Shown here piece by piece: positions 21,502 to 31,431 of a stretch of 32,000 bases of DNA. A model generated the notes under the pieces. The model saw only the letters and a list, made by a program, of their open reading frames with translations, did not search any database and was not told where the DNA came from. Source of the stretch: Horticoccus luteus (GTDB lineage: Bacteria; Verrucomicrobiota; Verrucomicrobiia; Opitutales; Opitutaceae); the NCBI RefSeq assembly GCF_019464535.1, contig NZ_CP080507.1:1950001-1982000 (forward strand), given 5' to 3'. Numbering within the stretch: the first letter of the stretch is position 1; every line of letters starts with the position of its first letter. The position numbers were made by a program, and so were the translations under genes.

Positions 21502-22833
21502 ATGCGTGAGTTCGCGACAGCCCCGACCGTCTCGCCATCGGCGGCGCAATTGGCGGAGCACTTTTTTCGGCACGAAACGGGGCGGTTGCACGGGGTTTTA
21601 ATCCGCCGTTTCGGCGTGGAGAACCTTTCGTTGGTGGAAGACGTGGCCCAAGAGGCGCTGCTCAAGGCGCTGCGCACGTGGTCGATGGGCGGAGTGCCGC
21701 CGAATCCGTCAGCATGGGTGACCCGGGTAGCGATGAACCTTGCGCACGATGCATTGCGCCACCGCACGATGTCGGCAGGCAAGGAGACTGATATCGCCCG
21801 GCATTTTGAGCAGTTGAGGCCGGCGGAGGATTCGCCCGGGATGGAAGAACGAGCGATCCGCGACGACGCTCTGCGGTTGATGTTCGTCTGCTGTCATCCC
21901 GCTCTGGCGTCGGACGCGCAAGTCGTGCTCGCTTTGAAAGTCTTGTGCGGCTTCAGCACAACCGAGATTGCGGAAGCGTTTCTGAGCACCGAAGCCGCGA
22001 TCGAAAAACAGATCACGCGGACGAAGCGACGAATTCGTGAAGCGGGCATTGGCTTCGATCTTCCGCACGGCGACGGATTGGCTGTACGGCTCGATGGCGT
22101 GCTCGGCGTGTTGTATTTACTTTTCAATGAAGGTTACAAGGCGTCGGATGGGCCGCGCCTCTTGCGTGAAGATCTTTGCCTGGAAGCGGTGCGGCTGATG
22201 TCACTCTTGGTGCAGCACCCGGCGGGCGATGTCCCGCGCAGCCACGCGTTGCTGGCGTTGATGCTGTTGACGGCGGCCCGCTTTCCCGCCCGCGTGGATG
22301 CGCAAGGTGGACTGCTGCGACTCGACGGACAGGATCGCACCAAATGGGATGGCGCCATGATCGACCGCGGGCTGCAGCACCTCGGGCACGCGGCGCAGGG
22401 CACGGAGGTGAGCGCATATCATCTGCAGGCGGGCATCGCGGCGATCCACTGCACGGCGCCCGATTACGCGGGAACGGATTGGACACGCATTCTTCAACAT
22501 TACGATGAACTGCACCGGTTGAAGCCGTCGCCCGTGGTCGAGCTCAATCGCGCCGTGGCTTTGGCGCAGTTACGCGGGCCGCAAGCGGGGTTGGACGCCA
22601 TCGCGGCGATAACGGCGGCCGGGAAACTCGAACGTCATTACCTCCTGCATGCGGTCCGCGGCGAATTGCACTGGCGGCGACGTGATGATCAGGCGGCGGC
22701 GCAATGTTTTCGCCGCGCGCTGCAACTTGCCCGAGTCGGACCTGAGCAGCTTTATCTCACCCGGTTGCTGGAGCGGTCGGCGGATGCCGTGTTCGACGAC
22801 ATCACATTGCTCGAAGGCCGCCCGCCCGAGTGA
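21502..22833 (+). CDS. ECF sigma factor with long C-terminal TPR-like extension (ECF42-type)
   Basis: Sigma region 2 (VEDVAQEALLKALRTW) and region 4 (LCGFSTTEIAEAFLSTEAAIEKQITRTKRRI) are followed by about 230 extra residues. No adjacent anti-sigma gene. Confidence 0.85.
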   Translation: MREFATAPTVSPSAAQLAEHFFRHETGRLHGVLIRRFGVENLSLVEDVAQEALLKALRTWSMGGVPPNPSAWVTRVAMNLAHDALRHRTMSAGKETDIARHFEQLRPAEDSPGMEERAIRDDALRLMFVCCHPALASDAQVVLALKVLCGFSTTEIAEAFLSTEAAIEKQITRTKRRIREAGIGFDLPHGDGLAVRLDGVLGVLYLLFNEGYKASDGPRLLREDLCLEAVRLMSLLVQHPAGDVPRSHALLALMLLTAARFPARVDAQGGLLRLDGQDRTKWDGAMIDRGLQHLGHAAQGTEVSAYHLQAGIAAIHCTAPDYAGTDWTRILQHYDELHRLKPSPVVELNRAVALAQLRGPQAGLDAIAAITAAGKLERHYLLHAVRGELHWRRRDDQAAAQCFRRALQLARVGPEQLYLTRLLERSADAVFDDITLLEGRPPE

Positions 22834-22874: not shown

Positions 22875-23792
22875 TCAGCAAACGCGGCCGCGTTTGCCGG
22901 CGCGCGTGTTCGCAATGGGGTTCGCGCCGATCCAGCGTTCATCGATGGGCTCGCTCGCGCGTTGATAGCGAGTGTCGGATGACAGGCGGACCCGAGCGGT
23001 CTGATTGTCGAGACTGCCATGCACCAGGGACATTCCAAACGTGATGAAATCTCCGATTCGCCATTCGGGCGCTGTGAGCCAGCGCCCGCCTAATTTTTCG
23101 CGCAAGGACACGGGGTTCTTCGTGAGAAATCCGGGATGGCTCCAACCGCCTTGGTTCTTCACGCGTTCCACTTCGCGGGGGCGGTTTTCGCAGTAGGAGT
23201 CGACGTCGATTTCCAGATAGTGCCGCAGGCGCTCGGACTTTTTGTGCGAATCTTCGAGGAGCATCACCCCGCCGACTTCGAGCGGCACGTCGCCATAAGG
23301 GATCCAGCAGGTGAGCAGTTGGTGCGTGCCGCGACCCATGTAAACAAGATCGCAGTGAGGCGTCGACCCTTGGCCGCGACTCATGGCGCGAAACCATGTG
23401 TAATCGAAATGCCGAACGGGCTCGCCGAAGAGCGCGGTGTAAAAGGCCACGAGCTCCGGGCCGTAAACCACACGCGCGACTTCCGGGTTGCCCACGGCCA
23501 AATCGCCGCGGTAGCCGGATGTTTTGTCCGGGTGCCCGATCGCGTCCATCACGGGGAACGCGGGGTCGAGCGAGCCTTCCGCCGCCAGGCGCGCGGTCAC
23601 GGATGCGCGCGCTGCGAGGATGAGATCACGCGAAAAAAATCCCGGGACGTAAAGGTAACCGTCCACAGCGAGACGTTGACGCAATTCGTCAGGGCGTTCC
23701 AAACAGTCCGCGGAAGAACGAATCTCGCCAAACGCCTCGGGCGAGGAGTCGATTTCGTGCCCGCAGGAAAGAAGAGGGAAAGTAACGTTCAT
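22875..23792 (-). CDS. Phytanoyl-CoA dioxygenase (PhyH) family Fe(II)/2-oxoglutarate oxygenase
   Basis: N-terminal DGYLYVPGFF, an HxD iron motif (PHCDL), a distal His (LVHGS) and a DTRYQR tail typical of the PhyH superfamily. Confidence 0.82.
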   Translation of the reverse strand: MNVTFPLLSCGHEIDSSPEAFGEIRSSADCLERPDELRQRLAVDGYLYVPGFFSRDLILAARASVTARLAAEGSLDPAFPVMDAIGHPDKTSGYRGDLAVGNPEVARVVYGPELVAFYTALFGEPVRHFDYTWFRAMSRGQGSTPHCDLVYMGRGTHQLLTCWIPYGDVPLEVGGVMLLEDSHKKSERLRHYLEIDVDSYCENRPREVERVKNQGGWSHPGFLTKNPVSLREKLGGRWLTAPEWRIGDFITFGMSLVHGSLDNQTARVRLSSDTRYQRASEPIDERWIGANPIANTRAGKRGRVC

Positions 23793-23906: not shown

Positions 23907-24761
23907 ATGACCACACGGTGGACAACCCGTTCTCTGCCGACCGCCGGCACGCCCACGCGACTGGGATCGTTGACTCTGGCGGGGCAATCGCGACTCAACC
24001 GAGGCATCGCACGGGATAGCATGCGCGTCTTGGGCAGCTACGCCTTGGTTTACGTGCTGGCTGGCCGGGCGCAGTTCGGCGATGCCACGGGACTGAAGCG
24101 AGAAGTCGTGGCCGGGGACGTATTCTTTCTGTTTCCCGAAGTGGCGCATTTCTACGAACCAGGAGCGTCCGGGCCTTGGGACGATGTCTGGTTGGTGTTC
24201 CAAGGGCCCGTGTTTGACCAATGGCGACGCGAGCGACTGCTCGATCCGGCAGATCCGGTGTGGCACGTCGAGCCGGTGGACGTGTGGCGAAAGAAGATCA
24301 TGCGCGTCCTCACCGGAGGCAGCACGGGCGGGGCGGCCGCGCTCGTGGAGGTGACACGATTGCTGGCGCTGCTCGCCGAAATGAGAGCAGCGGCGCGTGG
24401 CGAATTTGAACACGACCAACGGCCCGCCTGGCTGCAGGAAGCGTGTCGCCGGCTGGAAAGCGCGGCCGCCGTGCCGGATTGGGAGCGATTCGCGGGTGCT
24501 TTCGGGTTCTCGTATGAGCAATTCCGTCGAAAATTCAGCGAGGGGATGGGGGAGGCGCCTGCGCGCTATCGGCTGGCGCGTCGCATTGATCGGGCTGCGG
24601 CACTGTTGCAGGCGGAGGAACGGCCGTTAAAGCAGATCGCGGCGGAGCTCGGTTTTTGCGACGAGTTTCACTTCTCGAAGCTGTTTAAGCGGCGGACAGG
24701 GTTGTCGCCCTCCGCGTATCGGCGGCAGTGGCGAGCGAGCGAGCGGGCGGCGCGGAGCTAA
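23907..24761 (+). CDS. AraC family transcriptional regulator with N-terminal cupin-like sensor domain
   Basis: C-terminal double HTH (FGFSYEQFRRKFSEGMGEAPARYRL...LGFCDEFHFSKLFKRRTGLSPSAYRR). Divergent from the PhyH gene. Confidence 0.85.
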   Translation: MTTRWTTRSLPTAGTPTRLGSLTLAGQSRLNRGIARDSMRVLGSYALVYVLAGRAQFGDATGLKREVVAGDVFFLFPEVAHFYEPGASGPWDDVWLVFQGPVFDQWRRERLLDPADPVWHVEPVDVWRKKIMRVLTGGSTGGAAALVEVTRLLALLAEMRAAARGEFEHDQRPAWLQEACRRLESAAAVPDWERFAGAFGFSYEQFRRKFSEGMGEAPARYRLARRIDRAAALLQAEERPLKQIAAELGFCDEFHFSKLFKRRTGLSPSAYRRQWRASERAARS

Positions 24762-25053: not shown

Positions 25054-25776
25054 TTAAAGCACTTCGTCGACACGGGCGGACTCGCCTCCGCCGACCAAGG
25101 CAAACGCATAACGCGCATCGGACCAAGTGGCGACGGCGTTGCGGGCAAAATGTGCGAGACTCGCGGAAACATCGGCGGGGCCACCATCGAGAGCGCACAC
25201 GTAAAGATGGTATTCGCCGCCGGCGCGGCTGAAGCACACCTCCCAGACGTCGCGGCCGGCAAAACGAAGGGTGCGGCAATGAGCGGGTTTTACTCGTGCC
25301 CAATCAAATGTGGGTGTAGCGGCGAGATGAAAGTTGGGATTGGCGAGATCGGCGCGCAATTCCACCGAGGCGTCCGCAAGGCCGATGTGATGGCCGCGTC
25401 GCACGTCTGCCGCGGCCCAACTCGCGAGTTGCGGCAAGAGGAAAGCGTCGGCGGACGGTGCAAAGCGATGCCATGAAAACACGCCGAGGAGCGTGAGGCT
25501 GGCAGCGATGGCGAGGATCACGGGCCACCGCCAAGAGGTAACGCGGGGCTCAAGCCGTGCGCCGGACAATATCGAATCGCGCAATCCCGGCGGCGGAGTG
25601 AGGGCGCGAACGTGCTCGGCGAACGCGGCATCCCATGCTTGCTCACGGGCTTGCCACGTCCGAAGAACAGGGTCGCGTTCGGCGCACGCCAGTGCTTCGC
25701 GGAAGAGGGGATCTGTCGCGTCTTGCCCGCTGGGACGATAGGCGCGCAGACGGAATTGGGCGTCTTGGTTGTTCAT
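25054..25776 (-). CDS. Single-pass membrane anti-sigma factor (putative) with periplasmic Cys/His-containing domain
   Basis: ATGA overlap with the upstream ECF sigma gene. Helical cytoplasmic N-domain of about 70 aa, one TM helix (WRWPVILAIAASLTLLGVFSW) and an extracytoplasmic domain of about 130 aa. No ZAS HxxxCxxC motif. Confidence 0.7.
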   Translation of the reverse strand: MNNQDAQFRLRAYRPSGQDATDPLFREALACAERDPVLRTWQAREQAWDAAFAEHVRALTPPPGLRDSILSGARLEPRVTSWRWPVILAIAASLTLLGVFSWHRFAPSADAFLLPQLASWAAADVRRGHHIGLADASVELRADLANPNFHLAATPTFDWARVKPAHCRTLRFAGRDVWEVCFSRAGGEYHLYVCALDGGPADVSASLAHFARNAVATWSDARYAFALVGGGESARVDEVL

Positions 25777-26312
25777 GGCGTCTGCTTTTTAGCCGGCAAA
25801 ACAAAGGGGACGACGGGCGCGGCGGCGCGACGATCCGCAAGCGCGGCCCGCAACTGGCTTTTGCCGCGCGCGAGGCGGGACATGACCGTGCCGATGGGGA
25901 CGTTGAGCGTCGTCGCGATCTCCTGATAGGATAGTTCTTCGAGGTAAAACAGCGTCAGCGGCGCGCGAAAAACTTCATCGACCCGCGTGAGTGCTTCCCA
26001 TGCGACGGCGGCATCGACGCGTCGCAATTGGTCGACATCCTGATCACTGAGTTCGGCCTCCGGAGCGTCTTCGAGGGCGGTCTCGCGCGCACCGCGGCGA
26101 CGGCCGCGGAGAAATTCGCGATAAAGCGTGGTGAAGAGCCACGTTTTAACCTTCGCCACATCGCGGAGACTGTGGCCCTTGCGCGCCCAAATATAGAACG
26201 TTTGCTGCGTGAGATCGCACGCGTCCGCGGTGTTGCGGGCGAGGCTGAGCGCGAACCGATAGAGACCGGTGTAGTGCTGGTCGACGAGCGCGGTGAAGAC
26301 GTCCTCAGACAT
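25773..26312 (-). CDS. ECF (sigma-24/group IV) RNA polymerase sigma factor
   Basis: 179 aa. Region 2 (YRFALSLARNTADACDLTQQTFYIW) and region 4 HTH (LSYQEIATTLNVPIGTVMSRLARGKSQLR). Confidence 0.9.
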   Translation of the reverse strand: MSEDVFTALVDQHYTGLYRFALSLARNTADACDLTQQTFYIWARKGHSLRDVAKVKTWLFTTLYREFLRGRRRGARETALEDAPEAELSDQDVDQLRRVDAAVAWEALTRVDEVFRAPLTLFYLEELSYQEIATTLNVPIGTVMSRLARGKSQLRAALADRRAAAPVVPFVLPAKKQTP

Positions 26313-26335: not shown

Positions 26336-26800
26336 TCAGGAGGATTTAGCGGCGGTGGAGGCGGAAGGGCGCGCGAACCACGTGTCGAGGGAGAAGAAGC
26401 CCGGGCCAAATGCGAGAACGATCAAGGCCGTGAGCAGAAAGAGAAAGGGCGTCGCTGAGGTACAGGCGTCAGGGTCGTTCCATAGGCGGGTGACAGAGGC
26501 GCGTTCGGCAGTGGCATAGGCCACACTCATGACGCCAATCAGCGGCAGGGCGGCGGGGCGCGCGAAAAGGCCCAGAGCGAGCAGGGCGCCGCACAGCAAC
26601 TCCGTGGCGCCGGCCGCCGCGGCATTCAGCATGGGCCACGGCACACCCAGGCTGCCGAAATACGCGGCGGTGCGGTCGAGATGGTGTAGTTTGCCCCATC
26701 CGGTGAAGACGAAGCCGATGCCCCAGTAAAGGCGGAGCGCGAGAAGTAGCGGCGACTGGAGCCACTCCCCGCATGTGCGGAACACGTTCGGTTGACGCAT
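26336..26800 (-). CDS. DoxX family inner-membrane protein
   Basis: 154 aa from MRQPNV. Four predicted TM helices with DoxX-like motifs (LALRLYWGIGFVFTGWGKL; ELLCGALLALGLFARPAAL). The longer track ORF start would overlap the upstream gene. Confidence 0.8.
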   Translation of the reverse strand: MRQPNVFRTCGEWLQSPLLLALRLYWGIGFVFTGWGKLHHLDRTAAYFGSLGVPWPMLNAAAAGATELLCGALLALGLFARPAALPLIGVMSVAYATAERASVTRLWNDPDACTSATPFLFLLTALIVLAFGPGFFSLDTWFARPSASTAAKSS

Positions 26801-26828
26801 GGTAACGATAGAGAAAGACGCGGGGAAT

Positions 26829-27770
26829 TTATTCCCGCGCGCACAACCAGCCGAGGCGCGTCCAATGCTCAAACCACTCGCGGATCAAGGCGGCTTGTTC
26901 TTCGGCGCACGTCCGGGAAGAACGAAAGGCCGCGCCGCAGGCGTCAGCAAGCGGCTGACCTCTTGCCAGCGCGCGCAAGAGGCGGAATTCGGAGGGAGCA
27001 AGGCGCCGGAAATATATTTGATTTTGAAACCGGTGCACGGCGAGGAACGTGGTCGCGGCGCGGAGCCGCGGACCGGCGAGGCCCTTGGCGGTGCGGCGGC
27101 CGGGACGCACTGTCTGGCTCGCCGCAGTGCGCAAAGCCGAGTCGTGCTGCTTCAAGGCGAGCAAGTAATCGTCGACCGCGAAGGACAGACGGAGCAGGGT
27201 GAGACACGGTTGCAGGGCGAGGCGGAGCGTGAGAGGATCCGCAGTGCGCATTCGCCGAACCGAAACGGGCGCGCGCGCGGCGGCATCGAAGGCGACGATC
27301 TGCGCCCACTCGAACGCTGCAAGATTGCGCGCTGCGGCCGTATGCGGTGCCGTGTGGCGTGGTTGCGCCGCGATGAAGCGTGGCAGGTGACGGCCGAGAT
27401 CGCGCAGAGTGAACGAACGAGAGGGATGGGTTGCGATGTAGGCTCGGGCGAGACGCAGAAATCGCGCTTCACCCAAATGCATCCTCAGCCCGGGAAAGTC
27501 TTCGCCGAGGGAATCGAGCAGGCGAAACCAATACATGCGGTTGTAGATTTCGATGCGATCGAGCGCCGACAAGCGGCCCGTGTCGCGCGCAAAGGTTTTT
27601 ACCACGGCGTGCGTGGCGCGTCCATCAACCCAGCGGCGTTGCGCGCGATCCTGCGCCGAGAGCGGGCGACTGACGGCGGCAAACATCACGCGCTGCAACG
27701 AATGCAAGTCATGCAGTGACTGAATCCGGCCGGGGGCCGCCGCAGGCAAGGGGCGCACACTTCGAGGCAT
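26829..27770 (-). CDS. DUF2063 domain protein (MbnC/HvfC/BufC-like partner of DUF692 enzymes)
   Basis: N-terminal DUF2063 pattern (LQRVMFAAV...IEIYNRMYWFRLLDSLGEDFPGLRMHLGEARFLRLARAYIATHPSRSFTLRDLGRHLPRFI). Starts 2 nt after the DUF692 stop. Confidence 0.8.
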   Translation of the reverse strand: MPRSVRPLPAAAPGRIQSLHDLHSLQRVMFAAVSRPLSAQDRAQRRWVDGRATHAVVKTFARDTGRLSALDRIEIYNRMYWFRLLDSLGEDFPGLRMHLGEARFLRLARAYIATHPSRSFTLRDLGRHLPRFIAAQPRHTAPHTAAARNLAAFEWAQIVAFDAAARAPVSVRRMRTADPLTLRLALQPCLTLLRLSFAVDDYLLALKQHDSALRTAASQTVRPGRRTAKGLAGPRLRAATTFLAVHRFQNQIYFRRLAPSEFRLLRALARGQPLADACGAAFRSSRTCAEEQAALIREWFEHWTRLGWLCARE

Positions 27771-27772
27771 GA

Positions 27773-28636
27773 TCAGGAGCGCGCGATCGCAGTCGCCGGG
27801 GCGGTGACGGACGAGAGAAAGCGATCAGCCTTCAGTGCTTCCGCATGCACTTCTTCGAACGAGGGAATGCGATCATCCCATTCGAGCAACGTGGCCGTAG
27901 CGCCGCAGCGCCGGACGGCGCGGTCGTAAAGTTTCCACACGGGATCGATCACCGGATGGTCGTGCGTATCGAGGACGTAGCGCTCGAATTTGGTGTGGCC
28001 GGCGATGTGAATCTGCGCGACCCGTTCGGCCGGCACCGCATCGATGTAGGTGCGCGGATCGAAGTCGTGGTTGCGGGAAGAGACGTAAATGTTGTTCACG
28101 TCCAGCAGCACGCCGCAATCGGCCTGGTCGACGACTTCGTTGAGAAACTCCCACTCGGTCATTTCCGAGGCCGTGAATTCGGTGTAGCTGCTGACGTTCT
28201 CCACGCAGATCGGCACTTCGAGAAAATCCTGCGCCTCGCGAATCTTCGCGGCGGCGTGCTGGGCGGCGATTCGGGTGTAGGGAATCGGGAGCAAATCGTG
28301 CGTGTAGGTGCCGTCGATGCTGCCCCAACAAAGGTGGTCGCTTAGCCAAGGCGTTTTTGTCCGGCGGACCAGCGCTTTCAACCGGCGGAGATGGTCGCGG
28401 TTCAGACGATCGGCCGAGCCGAAATAGAGCGACACGCCGTGCTGCACGACACGGTATTGCTCCAGAATCTGATCGAGCACTTCCAAGGGCCGACCTCCGT
28501 CGACAAGGTAGTTTTCAGAGATGATCTCAAACCAATCGACCGTCGGCTTCTGCCGCAGGATGTGCTGGTAGTGCGGCACGCGCAGTCCGATGCCGATGCC
28601 GTAGTCAGTGAAGTTGTTGAAGCGATTCGCAGGCAT
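27773..28636 (-). CDS. DUF692 / UPF0276 family multinuclear non-heme iron oxidase (MNIO, MbnB-like)
   Basis: 287 aa, TIM-barrel family hallmarks: GIGLRVPHY, WFEIISENY, QHGVSLYFGS, PWLSDHLCW, ENVSSY, LLDVNNIYVS, IHIAGH, LDTHDHPV and LLEWD. These include the candidate iron-ligand His/Asp/Glu positions. Confidence 0.92.
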   Translation of the reverse strand: MPANRFNNFTDYGIGIGLRVPHYQHILRQKPTVDWFEIISENYLVDGGRPLEVLDQILEQYRVVQHGVSLYFGSADRLNRDHLRRLKALVRRTKTPWLSDHLCWGSIDGTYTHDLLPIPYTRIAAQHAAAKIREAQDFLEVPICVENVSSYTEFTASEMTEWEFLNEVVDQADCGVLLDVNNIYVSSRNHDFDPRTYIDAVPAERVAQIHIAGHTKFERYVLDTHDHPVIDPVWKLYDRAVRRCGATATLLEWDDRIPSFEEVHAEALKADRFLSSVTAPATAIARS

Positions 28637-28662
28637 GGGCGGACAACGCGGCGGGCTGGCAC

Positions 28663-28693
28663 GAGCGGCGCGATCAGTGCGACCGCGCCGCTC
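28663..28693 (-). promoter_or_regulatory. Intercistronic 10-bp perfect GC hairpin between precursor gene and DUF692 gene
   Basis: On the minus strand, GAGCGGCGCG-gtcgcactgat-CGCGCCGCTC. It lies 19 nt after the precursor stop and 27 nt before the DUF692 ATG, with no U-tract. Confidence 0.5.
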
Positions 28694-28711
28694 GGAGGCG
28701 AGAGACGAGGC

Positions 28712-29023
28712 TCAGCCTTGTTTGGCGGGCGCGTCTTTGCCTTTGCAGGAGTCTTTCGCTTTGCAGGATTCCTTGGCCTTGCAGGACTCTTTCGCTTTGC
28801 AGGAGGCCTTGTCTTTACCGTCCTTGGCAGCGTCGGCCTTGGCCGGATCCGCTTTCGCAGAGCAGCCATCCTTGCCGTTGCAGGACATTTTGTCGCTGGC
28901 GTGCTCGGCCGTGGCCGGCTGGCCGGGAGCCGCTTCGGCGGAAAAGGCGCGTGGGGTCGAAGCGCCGGCGTAAATGCCCGCAAGGGCGGCGACGGCGAGG
29001 AGAGTTTTGGCGTGGTTCGTCAT
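28712..29023 (-). CDS. Secreted Lys/Cys-rich repeat peptide, putative RiPP (bufferin/oxazolin-like) precursor
   Basis: 103 aa. Signal peptide MTNHAKTLLAVAALAGIYAGA. Six Cys at positions 48, 54, 75, 81, 87 and 93, and four consecutive SCK[AG]K[EDED] hexapeptides. First gene of the DUF692 operon. Confidence 0.75.
   Translation of the reverse strand: MTNHAKTLLAVAALAGIYAGASTPRAFSAEAAPGQPATAEHASDKMSCNGKDGCSAKADPAKADAAKDGKDKASCKAKESCKAKESCKAKDSCKGKDAPAKQG
28733..28804 (-). repeat. Four tandem 18-nt coding repeats (TCCTGCAARGSNAARGAN), each encoding S-C-K-[A/G]-K-[D/E]
   Basis: Direct reading of the minus strand gives tcctgcaaagcgaaagag / tcctgcaaggccaaggaa / tcctgcaaagcgaaagac / tcctgcaaaggcaaagac. 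Confidence 0.9.
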
Positions 29024-29214
29024 ATAGTCGAGAACGGGAACTGAAGAGCGTCGGTCGCCGCCGCCCAGGAGGGCAGCGAGGAAGCGCCGACGGGATAGGA
29101 GAACGCATAAATGCTTCTATTCCCACAATTTTTGACCGCCGCGTCGTCGTGGCTGGGGTGGGCTGTCAAAATTTCATTTGGTCAACGCGCCGGGTGCGCG
29201 TTTTATTACGCCGC

Positions 29215-30033
29215 ATGGCAGACTCCGAACTTCACTCCCGCATTGCGCAGGGCCGGCGGGCAGTGCTCGCCCAAACCGACCTCTTACACGAAGGGTTTGG
29301 GCGGGTGGCCAGCCAGTGGAAAACAGATGGGACGCGCGTGACCGCGGTGGATCTGGCGATCTCCGAAAACATCATGCGCGCGGTGCAGGCGGAGTTTGAT
29401 GATGATTTTTTCAGCGAGGAGCTGACGCTGGCGAGTGGACCGGTGCCGCTGACCAAACGTTTCGCGTGGGTGCTCGATCCGATCGATGGCACCAATAATT
29501 TCGTGACCGGGCTCGCGCATTGCGCCATTTCGCTGGCGCTGCTCGACGCCGGCGAACCGGTTTATGGATTCGTTTATGACTTATCGCGCCGCACGTTGAT
29601 CGAGGGCGGACCGGGTTTCGGAGTTTCGGATGGCGAGCGGCGGACGGAAGTGGTGCAGACGGTCCCCGACCCGCAGAGCTTGATCGGATTTCACAGCCCA
29701 TATGACCGGAACTTCGCGCGACATGCAGCGGTGCTGGCGGAGAACTTCAAGATTCGCGCACTCGGCAGCAGCACCTTGCACCTGGCCTACGTGGCGACGG
29801 GCGCACTCGCCGGCGTGGTGGACCACAACGTGAAGATATGGGATATCGCGGCAGCGGTGGCGTTGTTGCGAGGCGCGGGTGGAGAAATTGCGTTTCTCAA
29901 CGGCGAACAACTTCCGCTGCGCCACTTCGATTTGCACATGGGCCGCATCTTCTACGTTGCGGGCAACGCGGCGATGACGACGCGGCTGCGACAACTGATG
30001 GCGTGCGGATCGCAGGACGTTGGTCAGACCTGA
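29215..30033 (+). CDS. Inositol monophosphatase family protein (SuhB/CysQ-like)
   Basis: 272 aa from MADSELHS. Motifs FSEE, WVLDPIDGTNNF and WDIAAAVALLRGAGG. The upstream part of the track ORF lies in the intergenic/antisense region. Confidence 0.85.
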   Translation: MADSELHSRIAQGRRAVLAQTDLLHEGFGRVASQWKTDGTRVTAVDLAISENIMRAVQAEFDDDFFSEELTLASGPVPLTKRFAWVLDPIDGTNNFVTGLAHCAISLALLDAGEPVYGFVYDLSRRTLIEGGPGFGVSDGERRTEVVQTVPDPQSLIGFHSPYDRNFARHAAVLAENFKIRALGSSTLHLAYVATGALAGVVDHNVKIWDIAAAVALLRGAGGEIAFLNGEQLPLRHFDLHMGRIFYVAGNAAMTTRLRQLMACGSQDVGQT

Positions 30034-31382
30034 TACGTTTGCAGGGGCACGGGATCGAGCACCCGCGCGTTGGGCATCAGAGTGGCGAGTTGCTCGGCGA
30101 ACCACGCGCGGGCAGGCGGATCGCCATGAGTGAGGACGACGCTGCGCGCACCCGTCTGGACCGCGAACTCGACGAGCTGCTCGCGATCCGCATGTCCGGA
30201 GAGTTCGAAGCGCTCGATGCGGGCCTTCACCTTCGCTTTAACGTGCACCGTCTCGAAAAGAAACGTGTCTCCGGGCTTGGCGAGCTGGAGCTGGCCGCCG
30301 GGGGTGTCGGGATCGCAGTAGCCGACGAAGCCAATCGTGTTGCGCGCGTGACCGACCATGCCGGAGGCCAGGGTGTAGCTGGGCGTGCGCTCCACGAGCA
30401 TGCCCGAGCTGATGATGTAGAGCGCGTTTTGCTGGGGATCTTCGCCGGCGTTCAACTTGCGCGGCGTGGGCTTGATTTTGAGCTCTTTTATGATGCCCCG
30501 GTTGAACTGCACGTGCTTGGTCTTGCGGCTGATTTCGTCGAAGTAGTCGGCCAAGTCCATCCCGAGTCCGGACGCGTAAATCGGACATTCGATGAGCCGG
30601 CCGAACTTTCGCGCGTCGTAGATGATCGTGAGAATTTCCTGCATGCGGCCGAGCGCGAAGACGGGGATCACGAACGATCCGCCGCGTTGAATGGTGTCGT
30701 TGATGCTTTTCACGAGGCGGTCCAGCTCCGCGCTGCGGCTTTTGTCGGCCGGGCGCTCAGTGGTGCCGCGGGTCGTCTCGGTGACGAGGGTGTCAAAATG
30801 CCCAGCGGGAAACTCCGCACCTTTCAAGGTGCGTTGGTCATCGAAGAGAACGTCGCCGGTAAAGAAGATGGCGCGATGTTTGTGGCGAAGTTCGACGCCG
30901 GCGGCACCGGCGACATGCCCGGCGCGATGAAGAATGATTTCGATTTCATCTTTCGCCGTGTGAAACTTCTTGGCGTGCCCGAACGGCAACCCGACAAAGC
31001 GCTTCGCGCACCGGTCGATTTCCTCGTGCGTGAAGAGCGGATAGTCGGGAATGTTTTCATCTTCGCGCTGACGCAGCATCACGCTGGCCGAATTATGCAG
31101 CATGCGTTCGATGATGATCCGGCTCGAGGTGGTCATGAGCACCGGCGTATCCGGGTGCTCTCGCATCACGACGGGCAGACTGCCGATGTGATCGAGATGG
31201 CAGTGCGTGATGATGATCAAATCCAGAGTGACGCCTCGGAGCGGTGCCAAATCCGGCGAGGCAAGACGCCCGACTTTTTTCGGATTGAGTCCGGAATCGA
31301 TCAGGATGTTGAGGTCGCCAATTTGGACGAAGAGGGAATTGGCGCCAATGCCGCCGTCACGGTTCAAGTCAGTAAGCTTCAT
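30024..31382 (-). CDS. MBL-fold beta-CASP family hydrolase (RNA-metabolising metallo-beta-lactamase)
   Basis: HxHxDH motif (ITHCHLDHIGSLP), beta-CASP region and a C-terminal HGD motif (VLTHGDP). Start taken at MKLTDL (alternative 31406). Confidence 0.85.
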   Translation of the reverse strand: MKLTDLNRDGGIGANSLFVQIGDLNILIDSGLNPKKVGRLASPDLAPLRGVTLDLIIITHCHLDHIGSLPVVMREHPDTPVLMTTSSRIIIERMLHNSASVMLRQREDENIPDYPLFTHEEIDRCAKRFVGLPFGHAKKFHTAKDEIEIILHRAGHVAGAAGVELRHKHRAIFFTGDVLFDDQRTLKGAEFPAGHFDTLVTETTRGTTERPADKSRSAELDRLVKSINDTIQRGGSFVIPVFALGRMQEILTIIYDARKFGRLIECPIYASGLGMDLADYFDEISRKTKHVQFNRGIIKELKIKPTPRKLNAGEDPQQNALYIISSGMLVERTPSYTLASGMVGHARNTIGFVGYCDPDTPGGQLQLAKPGDTFLFETVHVKAKVKARIERFELSGHADREQLVEFAVQTGARSVVLTHGDPPARAWFAEQLATLMPNARVLDPVPLQTYQV

Positions 31383-31431
31383 GTGCTGCCGCGAAGAGAG
31401 CGGCAAACCGCCACGAGAACCAGTTCGATTT

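What the first reader, a model, noticed from the sequence alone, without database searches (positions are those of the whole stretch)
28712..29023. Atypical precursor: six Cys at strict 6-residue spacing in a Lys/Asp/Glu-rich, low-complexity core built from 18-nt tandem repeats
Seen in sequence: after the signal peptide (likely cleavage after IYAGA) the 82-aa mature region has no aromatic or large hydrophobic core. It has about 19 Lys and many Asp/Glu/Ala. The six Cys sit at 48/54 and 75/81/87/93, each preceded by Ser or Gly (SC, GC, SCx4). The last four lie in four consecutive S-C-K-[A/G]-K-[D/E] units encoded by near-identical 18-nt repeats (28733-28804), which suggests recent unit duplication and an expandable number of modification sites. 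The DUF2282-type precursors I recall (EKCYG / EGKCG-like motifs within a folded small domain) look different. The count of six Cys is reminiscent of the 6/12-Cys bufferin class, but I cannot assign it from sequence alone. An alternating Lys/acid scaffold carrying regularly spaced modified Cys would be a polyvalent, highly charged metal chelator.
Basis: partly seen in the sequence, partly recalled or inferred. Interest (0 to 1): 0.8.

Follow-up and report, generated by a model that had tools for sequence, protein, structure and literature searches.

The report
Repeat-built copper-peptide precursor, Cys-Lys bufferin class
This small gene encodes the secreted, cysteine-rich starting peptide of a known kind of bacterial metal-binding natural product (a bufferin/captophorin); it is an unusual low-complexity, repeat-built version of the known "six-cysteine" type rather than a new kind of system.

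Summary
The ORF (28712-29023, minus strand, 103 aa) is real, and the Cys positions and four S-C-K-[A/G]-K-[D/E] units are as described. It is the first gene of a bufA-bufB-bufC-doxX-ECF sigma-anti-sigma operon. The next gene passes NCBIfam's BufB (MNIO bufferin maturase) cutoff.

The peptide fails the DUF2282 and BufA2 models (13.4 vs 60 bits). It is still a divergent relative of BufA2/BUF_6/12Cys, shown by profile and shuffle tests and by hybrid peptides. The 6-residue Cys spacing is inherited: canonical relatives next to 73-82% identical BufB enzymes have spacing [6,6,7,6,6].

It fits the published "Cys-Lys" captophorin group. Four of six Cys are followed by Lys, and BufB has the Asp-Asp dyad (EWDD) reported for that group.

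About 50 similar repeat-type peptides were found, with 2-10 Cys. Two close orthologue pairs differ by whole units, so copy number does vary. However, repeat units differ at synonymous sites, so the repeats are maintained by selection and are not simply recent.

New here is a conserved ECF-type promoter (GGAATA-N15-16-[G/T]CTC) upstream of the precursor and of doxX-sigma.

Verdict: a new variant of a known kind, of modest interest. The chemistry and metal binding are inferred.

The parts
29099..29123 (-). Promoter P1, ECF-type: GGAATA-N15-TCTC, 76-100 nt upstream of the precursor ATG
   Evidence: The pattern GGAATA-N15-16-[GT]CTC occurs twice in the window, against 0.04 expected by chance. The same motif lies at -61 to -104 upstream of the precursor in L001-7, L013, L044, L051, L052, L057, L071, L073 and L085, and in the held-out loci L088, L089 and L090. 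All 22 matches in 1.24 Mb of locus sequence (both strands counted) are on the operon strand.
28712..29023 (-). bufA-like precursor peptide gene (103 aa, stop codon included)
   Evidence: ORF. Homologues sit in the same position upstream of MNIO-DUF2063-DoxX. GC3 is 0.74.
28940..29023 (-). Predicted Sec signal peptide, residues 1-28 (MTNHAKTLLAVAALAGIYAGASTPRAFS). The h-region is unusually conserved across the family and may also serve as the recognition sequence for BufBC.
   Evidence: Alignment A1: A12, A13, A15, G16, Y18, A19 and G20 are invariant. The cleavage site is inferred from the aligned A-x-A/S sites. [quoted passage not shown]
28862..28885 (-). N-terminal Cys pair module SCNGKDGC (Cys48, Cys54). 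It is the most conserved core motif of the lineage and aligns to CysI-CysII of the canonical BufA2-type triad.
   Evidence: K45, S47, C48, K51, G53 and C54 are invariant in A1. hhalign aligns DKxSCxGKDGCKAK with DKGKHxCKGKNxCKGQGGCK.
28805..28861 (-). Ala/Lys/Asp-rich linker without Cys (SAKADPAKADAAKDGKDKA). Its length varies between relatives.
   Evidence: The gap between the Cys blocks is 21 here, 18 in P0025 and 10 in P0003.
28733..28804 (-). Four tandem hexapeptide units S-C-K-[A/G]-K-[D/E] (18-nt period). These are the predicted main modification sites (the Cys-Lys dyads).
28662..28694 (-). GC-rich hairpin (14-bp stem, 5-nt loop) in the 75-nt gap between bufA and bufB. Probably an attenuator or mRNA-stabilising element.
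   Evidence: Fold. Comparable hairpins lie directly after the precursor stop codon in 17 of 18 related loci, often followed by a T-run.
27773..28636 (-). bufB, the MNIO maturase (287 aa), with the E252-W-D254-D255 motif
   Evidence: NCBIfam NF050167 MNIO_BufB scores 356.6 bits (cutoff 310). PF05114, E 2.6e-109. EWDD compared with ERDF in 3BWW.
26829..27770 (-). bufC, the DUF2063 partner protein (PME type 1)
   Evidence: PF09836 scores 62.6 bits (cutoff 27.2). The C-terminal NGO1945_C match is weak (E 0.012). HvfC scores 57.6 bits, below its cutoff of 142.
26811..26835 (-). Promoter P2, the same ECF-type motif, overlapping the bufC stop codon and ending 10 nt before the doxX ATG
   Evidence: The analogous motif lies directly upstream of the sigma gene in L012 and L013 and upstream of doxX in L071.
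26336..26800 (-). doxX (bufD), 154 aa from the ATG at 26800
   Evidence: PF07681 scores 71.2 bits. The start is set by the homologues' alignment start and by the position of P2.
25773..26312 (-). ECF sigma factor
   Evidence: TIGR02937 scores 63 bits (cutoff 42.9). Sigma70_r2 and r4_2 domains are present.
25054..25776 (-). Single-pass anti-sigma factor (not NrsF). Its start overlaps the sigma stop codon by 4 nt. Its periplasmic domain has two invariant Cys.
   Evidence: Weak NF052375 match, E 3.9e-5. No Pfam hit. Alignment of six homologues, TM segment at residues 86-102. ATGA overlap.

Best explanation
**What it is.** This is the precursor gene (bufA) of a bufferin/captophorin gene cluster of the Cys-Lys (BufA2-related) class. 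The host is probably an Opitutales-like verrucomicrobium.

**How it most likely works**
1. Envelope stress (metal or oxidative) acts on a single-pass anti-sigma factor and frees the co-encoded ECF sigma factor.
2. The sigma factor transcribes bufA-B-C from promoter P1, and doxX-sigma-anti-sigma from P2 (which makes it autoregulatory).
3. A hairpin after bufA probably raises the amount of precursor message relative to the enzyme genes.
4. In the cytoplasm the BufB(MNIO)-BufC complex binds the precursor, probably including its conserved signal peptide. It then oxidises Cys residues to 5-thiooxazoles, a loss of 4 Da per Cys.
5. The four Cys-Lys dyads of the hexapeptide repeats are the most likely targets. 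The Lys would sit against BufB Asp255.
6. The Sec system exports the peptide and the signal peptide is removed near AFS|AE.
7. The product is a highly charged, probably flexible peptide of about 75 residues that chelates Cu(I)/Cu(II) in the periplasm. If there are two thiooxazoles per Cu, it would bind roughly 2-3 Cu.

**Origin of the architecture.** The 6-residue Cys period comes from the C-x5-C-x5-C triads of the BufA2-type core. In this lineage the Gly/Asn-rich triads have been replaced by S-C-K-x-K-D/E units, whose number changes between relatives.

**Shown versus inferred.**
- Shown here: gene identities, synteny, homology, motif statistics and copy-number variation.
- Inferred from published work on relatives: the modification chemistry, which Cys are modified, export, metal binding and the inducing signal.
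For: - BufB passes the equivalog cutoff (356.6 vs 310). DUF2063, DoxX, ECF sigma and anti-sigma follow on the same strand.
- Homologous peptides occupy the same position in independent contigs.
- 80 genome loci have BufB at 73-82% identity. Most carry canonical 6-Cys peptides with spacing [6,6,7,6,6], and some are hybrids, for example L036 with [6,6,6,6,6,6,7,6,6].
- Core-only profile comparison of window-type vs canonical peptides: 96% probability, E 2e-9.
- The window core scores 18.8 bits against a canonical-core HMM. It is reached by 0 of 2000 full shuffles and 1 of 2000 shuffles with Cys positions fixed.
- Four CK dyads and no KC dyads.
- BufB has EWDD where the Lys-Cys-type 3BWW has ERDF, and LRV where 3BWW has YRR. 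These match the Cys-Lys determinants described in PMC13097082.
- Promoter motif statistics and its position upstream of the sigma genes.
- Hairpin conservation.
- Literature: in Buf2, four of six Cys are modified at -4 Da each, absorbance is at 305 nm, and the peptide protects against copper (PMC11626156). All characterised MNIO-PME1 clusters install 5-thiooxazoles, and fontiphorin with 7 thiooxazoles binds up to 4 Cu (PMC13097082).
Against: - The peptide fails the BufA2 HMM cutoff (13.4 vs 60 bits). It lacks both CxGxxxCxGxGGC triads.
- No experimental data exist for any repeat-type Cys-Lys peptide.
- In Caulobacter Buf2, CysI and CysVI stay unmodified. A Lys after Cys is therefore not a proven predictor of modification.
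- The mapping of FonB Asp249/Phe250 onto D254/D255 goes through 3BWW, not through FonB or BufB2 themselves.
- Metal specificity is unknown, and other metals or oxidative stress are possible (PMC12452194 discussion).
- AlphaFold gave no usable structural information.
- The organism is not identified directly.
Confidence: 0.8

Rival explanations
1. It is simply an ordinary BufA2 / BUF_6/12Cys bufferin precursor. It would have six Cys, a folded small domain, an outer disulfide and four inner thiooxazoles, and nothing would distinguish it.
For: - Six Cys, BufB equivalog, Cys-Lys dyads and homology to canonical cores.
- Even clearly canonical Acidobacteria and Opitutaceae peptides miss the NCBIfam cutoff (38.6-41.4 vs 60 bits). 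Failing the cutoff is therefore weak evidence of difference.
Against: - It scores 13.4 bits, against about 40 for canonical relatives.
- It has no triad motifs. Its spacing is [6,21,6,6,6] rather than [6,6,7,6,6].
- After the signal peptide, Met46 is the only aromatic or large hydrophobic residue (F, W, Y, I, L, M, V) in 74 residues.
- Relatives of this type have anywhere from 2 to 10 Cys. That does not fit a fixed folded 6-Cys domain.
Confidence: 0.12
2. All six Cys, including the SCNGKDGC pair, are converted to thiooxazoles. The peptide would then work as a disordered multi-site copper sponge that aggregates on loading, like the EGKCG peptides.
For: - The N-terminal pair is the most conserved motif of the lineage.
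- It aligns to the first two Cys of the canonical triad.
- In repeat-type EGKCG captophorins every repeat Cys is modified, and copper causes aggregation (PMC13097082; PMC12538549).
Against: - Cys48 and Cys54 are followed by Asn and Ser, not Lys.
- In Buf1 and Buf2 two Cys remain unmodified and form a disulfide (PMC11626156).
Confidence: 0.3
3. The peptide is a decaying or unmodified remnant. It would be either a low-complexity ORF drifting after loss of the canonical core, or a metallothionein-like peptide that binds metal through free thiols without MNIO modification.
For: - Low-complexity composition.
- No curated family match.
- AlphaFold gives low confidence.
Against: - The Cys, the S-C-K context and the 6-residue period are conserved across about 50 cluster representatives.
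- Differences between units are synonymous here. They include a TCC/AGT serine switch in P0002. This indicates purifying selection.
- The peptide always sits directly upstream of an intact BufB carrying the matching Asp dyad.
- A dedicated conserved promoter sits in front of it.
Confidence: 0.05
4. The cluster responds to, and protects against, a stress other than copper. Candidates are another thiophilic metal, oxidative stress or sulphur stress.
For: - The window contains no copper-specific gene (no cop or cus genes, no CopS-like kinase).
- DoxX proteins are linked to oxidative and sulphur stress, and 'gig' operons are induced by gold (PMC12452194 discussion).
- The anti-sigma factor is not NrsF, and it has two conserved periplasmic Cys that could sense redox state.
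Against: All characterised products of MNIO-PME1 clusters bind copper. Buf1 and Buf2 are induced specifically by copper in Caulobacter (PMC11626156; PMC13097082).
Confidence: 0.25

Closest known systems
BufA2 / BUF_6/12Cys bufferins (Buf2 of Caulobacter vibrioides; NCBIfam NF050166). Leprevost et al. 2024, PMC11626156; Antoine et al. 2025, PMC12452194.
   Same: - Sec signal peptide and six Cys with a C-x5-C period.
- Cys followed by Lys.
- Gene order bufA-bufB-bufC(-doxX), with a BufB-type MNIO.
- Detectable sequence homology of the core.
   Different: - Fails the HMM cutoff (13.4 vs 60 bits).
- No CxGxxxCxGxGGC triads. Spacing is [6,21,6,6,6] instead of [6,6,7,6,6].
- The core is built from S-C-K-x-K-D/E hexapeptide repeats, and Cys number varies (2-10) among relatives.
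- ECF sigma and anti-sigma genes lie in the cluster. The 2025 survey reported these for Buf1 but not for Buf2 clusters.
'Cys-Lys' group of captophorins (Gadgil et al. 2026, PMC13097082)
   Same: - Defined by multiple Cys-Lys motifs in a Cys-rich precursor next to an MNIO-PME1 pair.
- The MNIO has Asp at the FonB-Phe250 position and has lost the second Arg.
- All of these are met here.
   Different: - The group is defined by motif, and only BufA2 has been examined experimentally.
- The hexapeptide-repeat architecture and the Verrucomicrobiota lineage are not described. The survey held only 33 Verrucomicrobiota clusters, 6 of them from Opitutales.
- Searching the held supplement text of both survey papers for this peptide's repeat and signal-peptide strings (e.g. 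SCKAKESCKAK, CKGKDGCKAK, AGLYAG) found nothing.
Lys-Cys / Buf_EGKCG captophorins (oxazolin, fontiphorin, gonophorin, bulbicupramide precursor MmrA)
   Same: - Repeat-built, low-complexity cores with a variable number of Cys units between relatives (5-8 in Microbulbifer, up to 58 elsewhere).
- Same enzyme pair, and copper binding by several thiooxazoles.
   Different: - The motif is E-G-K-C-G (Lys before Cys, Gly after). Here it is S-C-K (Lys after Cys), with no KC dyad and no EGKCG.
- The enzyme has Phe, not Asp, after the catalytic Asp.
- FonBC does not process substrates with a charged residue after Cys.
BufA1 / DUF2282 bufferins
   Same: Signal peptide, the same enzyme pair, and ECF sigma/anti-sigma regulation of the cluster.
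   Different: - No DUF2282 match.
- Four Cys in a folded domain.
- The anti-sigma factor there is the multi-pass NrsF. Here it is a single-pass protein with no NrsF match.

Membership tests
Bufferin/captophorin gene cluster (MNIO + PME1 + Cys-rich Sec precursor) | BufB-type MNIO enzyme encoded directly downstream of the precursor | tested here: met
   NF050167 MNIO_BufB equivalog scores 356.6 bits against a cutoff of 310. PF05114, E 2.6e-109.
Bufferin/captophorin gene cluster (MNIO + PME1 + Cys-rich Sec precursor) | DUF2063 (PME type 1) partner gene after the MNIO gene; gene order A-B-C(-DoxX) | tested here: met
   PF09836 scores 62.6 bits (cutoff 27.2). DoxX PF07681 scores 71.2 bits. Same strand and order. 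The C-terminal RRE-like domain has only weak support (PF22106, E 0.012).
Bufferin/captophorin gene cluster (MNIO + PME1 + Cys-rich Sec precursor) | Sec signal peptide on the precursor | tested here: inconclusive
   The sequence shows a basic n-region (K6), a 15-residue hydrophobic stretch and A-F-S|A or A-G-A|S cleavage sites. No signal-peptide predictor was available.
Bufferin/captophorin gene cluster (MNIO + PME1 + Cys-rich Sec precursor) | Cys converted to 5-thiooxazole (-4 Da, 305 nm absorbance); product binds copper | not testable with these tools
   Needs expression, mass spectrometry, NMR and metal titration.
BufA2 / BUF_6/12Cys | Match to the family HMM above its curated cutoff | tested here: not met
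   NF050166 scores 13.4 bits, E 0.07, against a cutoff of 60. Canonical relatives from Acidobacteria and Opitutaceae also miss the cutoff but score 38.6-41.4 bits with E about 1e-10.
BufA2 / BUF_6/12Cys | Six (or twelve) conserved Cys in the family's arrangement: two C-x5-C-x5-C triads, spacing [6,6,7,6,6] | tested here: not met
   There are six Cys, but the spacing is [6,21,6,6,6] and no CxGxxxCxGxGGC triad is present.
BufA2 / BUF_6/12Cys | Sequence homology of the core to family members | tested here: met
   hhalign of cores: 96.2% probability, E 2.1e-9 over 25 columns. 18.8 bits against a canonical-core HMM, reached by 0 of 2000 full shuffles and 1 of 2000 Cys-fixed shuffles. Hybrid peptides L036 and P0006-P0015 link the two types.
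BufA2 / BUF_6/12Cys | Small folded domain with an outer CysI-CysVI disulfide | tested here: inconclusive
   AlphaFold2 gives mean pLDDT 46.0 for the window peptide. The control with a canonical core (P0014), at the same alignment depth, gives 43.6. The test cannot discriminate.
Cys-Lys captophorin group (PMC13097082) | Multiple Cys-Lys motifs in the precursor | tested here: met
   Four CK dyads, no KC dyads.
Cys-Lys captophorin group (PMC13097082) | MNIO has Asp at the position of FonB Phe250, next to the catalytic Asp; the second Arg (FonB Arg16) is not conserved | tested here: met
   The window BufB has E252-W-D254-D255, against E-R-D-F in 3BWW, and G-L-R19-V20 against G-Y-R-R. EWDD is present in 84 of 87 related loci. 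The mapping to FonB numbering is inferred through 3BWW.
BufA1 / DUF2282 | Match to Pfam DUF2282 | tested here: not met
   No Pfam family at E <= 0.1.
Buf_EGKCG / oxazolin (Lys-Cys group) | Repeated E-G-K-C-G motifs | tested here: not met
   No EGKCG and no KC dyads.
'CxxxxC' precursor family (PMC12452194) | Conserved C-x4-C motifs (the authors' HMM is not available) | tested here: not met
   No C-x4-C occurs in the peptide; the spacing is C-x5-C. The HMM itself could not be tested.
ECF sigma factor | Sigma-70 regions 2 and 4 only; match to the ECF superfamily model | tested here: met
   TIGR02937 scores 63.0 bits (cutoff 42.9). PF04542 and PF08281 are present.

The most novel reading that the evidence does not exclude
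The S-C-K-x-K-D/E repeat peptides would form a distinct subclass of captophorins with three properties:
- The core is intrinsically disordered rather than a folded 6-Cys domain.
- Every Cys-Lys unit becomes a thiooxazole, so metal capacity is set by a repeat number that changes between close relatives.
- Expression is controlled by a previously undescribed ECF sigma factor and a two-cysteine single-pass anti-sigma sensor, through the GGAATA-N15-16-(G/T)CTC promoter.

If true, this would give the Cys-Lys class its own tunable 'copper sponge', parallel to the EGKCG peptides, plus a new envelope stress sensor in Verrucomicrobiota.
Probability: 0.4. Interest if true: 0.5.

Novelty: new variant of a known kind. 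Interest (0 to 1): 0.35.

Why it matters
Bufferins/captophorins are a recently recognised and very widespread family of ribosomal metal-binding peptides. Almost all experimental work is on Pseudomonadota, and on either folded (DUF2282, BufA2) or EGKCG-repeat precursors.

This locus shows three things:
- The Cys-Lys branch also has a low-complexity, repeat-built form with variable unit number. It occurs in Verrucomicrobiota.
- Curated HMMs miss this form, and they under-score even the canonical Acidobacteria and Verrucomicrobiota peptides.
- The form comes with a dedicated ECF sigma/anti-sigma pair whose promoter can be read directly from the DNA.

This is useful for annotation and genome mining. 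It also offers a compact test system: four near-identical Cys-Lys sites plus two non-Lys sites on one peptide, which allows a test of the proposed Asp-Lys specificity rule of these enzymes. It does not change what this kind of system is understood to be.

Tried and rejected
- **AlphaFold2 on the peptide** (pLDDT 46). I rejected this as evidence for disorder, because a control with a canonical core at the same alignment depth was equally poor (43.6).
- **Searching the published supplements** of both survey papers for this peptide's repeat and signal-peptide strings (e.g. SCKAKESCKAK, CKGKDGCKAK, AGLYAG). No hits. The held text may be incomplete, so this is weak evidence that the peptide is uncatalogued.
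- **Sigma-70 promoter scan** of the operon region. No sites. The ECF-type motif was found only by comparing loci.
- **The beta-CASP metallo-beta-lactamase gene upstream** (30024-31406). I considered it as a cluster member because Lactamase_B_2 genes accompany the 'CxxxxC' family. I rejected it because it is separated by an opposite-strand inositol monophosphatase gene and is absent from the related loci.
- **A second precursor-like ORF in the window.** None found; other ORFs with C-x5-C are off-frame artefacts of GC-rich DNA.
- **Identifying the organism through the exact peptide.** Only a 4.4-kb unnamed contig from a sequencing run was found. The Opitutales-like origin is inferred from the shared signal-peptide sequence, the promoter motif and the sigma pair in named MAGs.
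- **Failed scripts.** Several hmmsearch calls failed, apparently because of the option combination used (--max with --nobias, negative -T values). They were rerun correctly.
Full report
**1. The observation**

The minus-strand ORF at 28712-29023 encodes MTNHAKTLLAVAALAGIYAGASTPRAFSAEAAPGQPATAEHASDKMSCNGKDGCSAKADPAKADAAKDGKDKASCKAKESCKAKESCKAKDSCKGKDAPAKQG. Cys are at 48, 54, 75, 81, 87 and 93, each preceded by Ser or Gly. The last four lie in the units SCKAKE, SCKAKE, SCKAKD and SCKGKD, encoded exactly at 28733-28804. Tandem Repeats Finder reports an 18-nt period with 4.7 copies and 77% matches. Four of the five Cys-Cys gaps equal 6. Random placement of six Cys gives this 30 times per million.

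Some details need correcting:
- There are 16 Lys in the mature part, not about 19.
- The two Cys blocks are 21 residues apart.
- The 18-nt units differ at 1-4 of 18 positions. Units 1 and 2 differ at four positions, all synonymous.

The gene is real rather than a GC-rich artefact. Its GC3 is 0.74, like its neighbours, and it has positional homologues in many genomes (see section 3).

**2. Context**

Directly downstream on the same strand lie:
- an MNIO enzyme that passes NCBIfam's BufB equivalog cutoff (356.6 vs 310 bits);
- a DUF2063 partner protein;
- DoxX;
- an ECF sigma factor;
- an overlapping anti-sigma factor.

The rest of the window is chromosomal housekeeping: acetyl-CoA synthetase, Mur ligase, Ada, Ffh, Der, Fmt and ParB. 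A tRNA-Met marks the far end of the operon. This is the bufABCD layout of bufferin clusters (PMC11626156, PMC12452194).

**3. What the peptide is related to**

It has no Pfam hit, so it is not DUF2282. It scores 13.4 bits against the BufA2 model, whose cutoff is 60. A sequence search found 17 homologues. Those I traced lie directly upstream of MNIO-DUF2063-DoxX, and in some loci an ECF sigma/anti-sigma pair follows.

Using the window's BufB, I fetched 80 genome loci with 73-82% identical enzymes. They come from Acidobacteriota and Verrucomicrobiota, and I extracted the upstream ORF from each.
- Most carry a very regular 6-Cys peptide, HxCKGxNxCKGxGGCKxxDNGCKGKNSCKGKGGC, with spacing [6,6,7,6,6].
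- These peptides score about 40 bits (E about 1e-10) against BufA2. They are BufA2 relatives that the curated cutoff under-calls.
- The window peptide has spacing [6,21,6,6,6], P0003 has [6,10,6,6,6], and P0007 has seven Cys all 6 apart.
- Hybrids exist. The Opitutaceae MAG locus L036 has a window-type N-terminal part fused to a canonical core, [6,6,6,6,6,6,7,6,6].

Homology holds when signal peptides are removed.
- Profile-profile comparison of the cores gives 96% probability, E 2e-9. It aligns DKxSCxGKDGCKAK with DKGKHxCKGKNxCKGQGGCK.
- The window core scores 18.8 bits against a canonical-core HMM. None of 2000 full shuffles and 1 of 2000 Cys-fixed shuffles reach that score.

The 6-residue period is therefore inherited from the BufA2-type core. 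It was not invented here.

**4. Fit to the published classes**

Gadgil et al. (PMC13097082) divide precursors of MNIO-PME1 clusters into DUF2282, Lys-Cys (EGKCG) and Cys-Lys groups. BufA2 belongs to the Cys-Lys group. They report that Cys-Lys enzymes carry Asp where FonB has Phe250, next to the catalytic Asp249, and have lost the second Arg near the N-terminus.

The window peptide has four CK dyads and no KC dyads. Its BufB reads LLEWDD where the Lys-Cys-type 3BWW enzyme reads LLERDF, and GLRV where 3BWW reads GYRR. EWDD is present in 84 of 87 related loci. Enzyme and substrate therefore match the Cys-Lys rule. The residue mapping goes through 3BWW and is an inference.

**5. Size and variability of the repeat-type group**

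A profile of seven window-type peptides, searched against 1.84 billion cluster representatives, gave 654 hits at E <= 1e-3 and 69 at E <= 1e-10. I pooled the 150 best hits with the earlier homologues and the window peptide and classified them:

| Class | Number | Cys count |
|---|---|---|
| No canonical triad (window-type) | 52 | 2-10; 68% of gaps equal 6 |
| Hybrid or extended | 28 | 7-15 |
| One triad | 24 | 3-11 |
| Canonical, two triads | 61 | 6 |

P0025 has the closest architecture: [6,18,6,6,6], with a near-identical N-terminus.

Copy number changes between close relatives.
- P0003 and P0019 are 88% identical and differ by exactly one hexapeptide unit.
- P0005 and P0020 share an identical N-terminal half but have 9 vs 6 Cys.

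The repeats are not merely recent, however. In P0002 four 36-nt units encode the same 12 residues but differ at synonymous sites, including TCC vs AGT for Ser. This argues for selection on the peptide sequence.

**6. Regulation (new, and outside the original coordinates)**

Comparing the upstream regions revealed the motif GGAATA-N15-16-[G/T]CTC.
- In the window it occurs exactly twice (0.04 expected by chance), both times on the operon strand. One copy is at 29123-29099, 100 nt upstream of the precursor ATG. The other is at 26835-26811, ending 10 nt before the doxX ATG at 26800.
- Across 1.24 Mb of locus sequence (both strands counted) there are 22 matches, all on the operon strand.
- They lie 61-104 nt upstream of the precursor in Verrucomicrobiota loci, directly upstream of the sigma gene in L012 and L013, and upstream of doxX in L071.
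- Three loci fetched afterwards (L088, L089, L090) also carry it, about 100 nt from the true start.

A motif in front of the sigma gene itself is the signature of an autoregulated ECF sigma factor.

The anti-sigma factor is single-pass, has no NrsF match, and has two invariant periplasmic Cys. The 2025 survey reported sigma/anti-sigma genes for Buf1 but not Buf2 clusters, so this pairing is a small addition.

A 14-bp GC hairpin follows the precursor stop codon (28662-28694). Similar hairpins, often with a T-run, follow the precursor in 17 of 18 related loci. This suggests attenuation or transcript stabilisation that favours the precursor message.

**7. Mechanism and its status**

- *Shown here:* gene identities, order, homology, enzyme-substrate motif match, promoter statistics and unit-number variation.
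- *Inferred from characterised relatives:* BufB-BufC converts Cys to 5-thiooxazoles at -4 Da each. In Buf2 four of the six Cys are modified and the outer two form a disulfide. The peptide is exported by Sec and protects against copper (PMC11626156). All characterised MNIO-PME1 clusters make 5-thiooxazoles, and fontiphorin with seven binds up to four Cu (PMC13097082). The signal peptide may be part of the recognition sequence (PMC12452194), which would fit its unusual conservation here.
- *My prediction:* the four Cys-Lys units are modified, the status of Cys48 and Cys54 is open, and the product binds roughly 2-3 Cu.

Structure prediction was uninformative. The peptide gave pLDDT 46, and a canonical-core control gave 43.6.

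**8. Verdict**

The finding is real and correctly described in its main points. It is a divergent, repeat-built member of a known class (Cys-Lys bufferins/captophorins), not a new kind of system. Variable-number Cys repeats are already known in the sister EGKCG class (PMC12538549). Interest is modest, at 0.35. The value lies in annotation, in a convenient test substrate for the Asp-Lys specificity rule, and in the ECF regulon.

Noticed in passing
window 29099-29123 (-) and 26811-26835 (-); L012 1216, L013 1202, L071 889/1727/2234, L089 310, L090 925: A conserved ECF-type promoter motif, GGAATA-N15-16-[G/T]CTC. It lies upstream of the precursor, of doxX-sigma, and (in L012 and L013) of the sigma gene itself. 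It occurs twice in the window against 0.04 expected, and all 22 matches in the loci are on the operon strand. Where it precedes sigma or doxX it ends only 6-10 nt before the start codon, which suggests near-leaderless transcripts.
   Followed up: yes
window 25054-25776 (-): The anti-sigma factor is single-pass (TM at residues 86-102), has no NrsF or zinc-finger anti-sigma match, and has two invariant Cys about 15 residues apart in its periplasmic domain across six homologues. It may be a redox or metal sensor. The 2025 survey reported sigma/anti-sigma genes in Buf1 clusters but not in Buf2 clusters.
   Followed up: partly
window 28662-28694 (-); intergenic regions of L001, L009, L011-13, L036, L043, L044, L051, L052, L065, L073 and others: A strong GC-rich hairpin lies immediately after the precursor stop codon in 17 of 18 related loci examined. 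In many of them (but not in the window) a T-run follows. It looks like a conserved attenuator or terminator between bufA and bufB.
   Followed up: partly
L008-L087 (e.g. L009, Edaphobacter aggregans DSM 19364, precursor at 2605-2898): Clearly canonical 6-Cys BufA2-type precursors from Acidobacteriota and Verrucomicrobiota score only about 39-41 bits against NCBIfam NF050166 (cutoff 60). The annotation pipeline probably leaves them unnamed.
   Followed up: partly
L043 (Opitutia MAG), P0110, P0121, L020, L072: Other departures from the 6-Cys plan. L043 has nine Cys (three triads). P0110 and P0121 have eight Cys. L020 and L072 have two triads separated by a 21-residue linker, with Gly replaced by Ala. 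The core is modular at the triad level as well.
   Followed up: no
L017, L023, L055, L066, L086, P0126, P0161: Some relatives have a Cys at the end of the signal peptide in a lipobox-like context (for example LAGC, TGCS). This fits the reported roughly 16% of Buf2 precursors that have lipoprotein signal peptides.
   Followed up: no
window 30024-31406 (-) and 28951-30033 (+): A beta-CASP metallo-beta-lactamase (RNase J-like) gene and an inositol monophosphatase gene lie upstream of the precursor. The same arrangement is in L088 but not in the other related loci, so they are probably unrelated to the cluster.
   Followed up: partly
window 21502-22833 (+): A second ECF-like sigma factor with a DUF6596 C-terminal extension lies a few kb away and has no obvious link to the cluster. 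An AraC-family regulator (23907-24761, +) and a PhyH-like dioxygenase (22875-23792, -) lie between it and the operon end.
   Followed up: no
L088 (Logan SRR34023387 contig, 4394 nt): The exact 103-aa peptide is also encoded on a short contig from a public sequencing run, with the same gene order. Its DNA is not identical to the window, so it comes from a closely related strain.
   Followed up: partly
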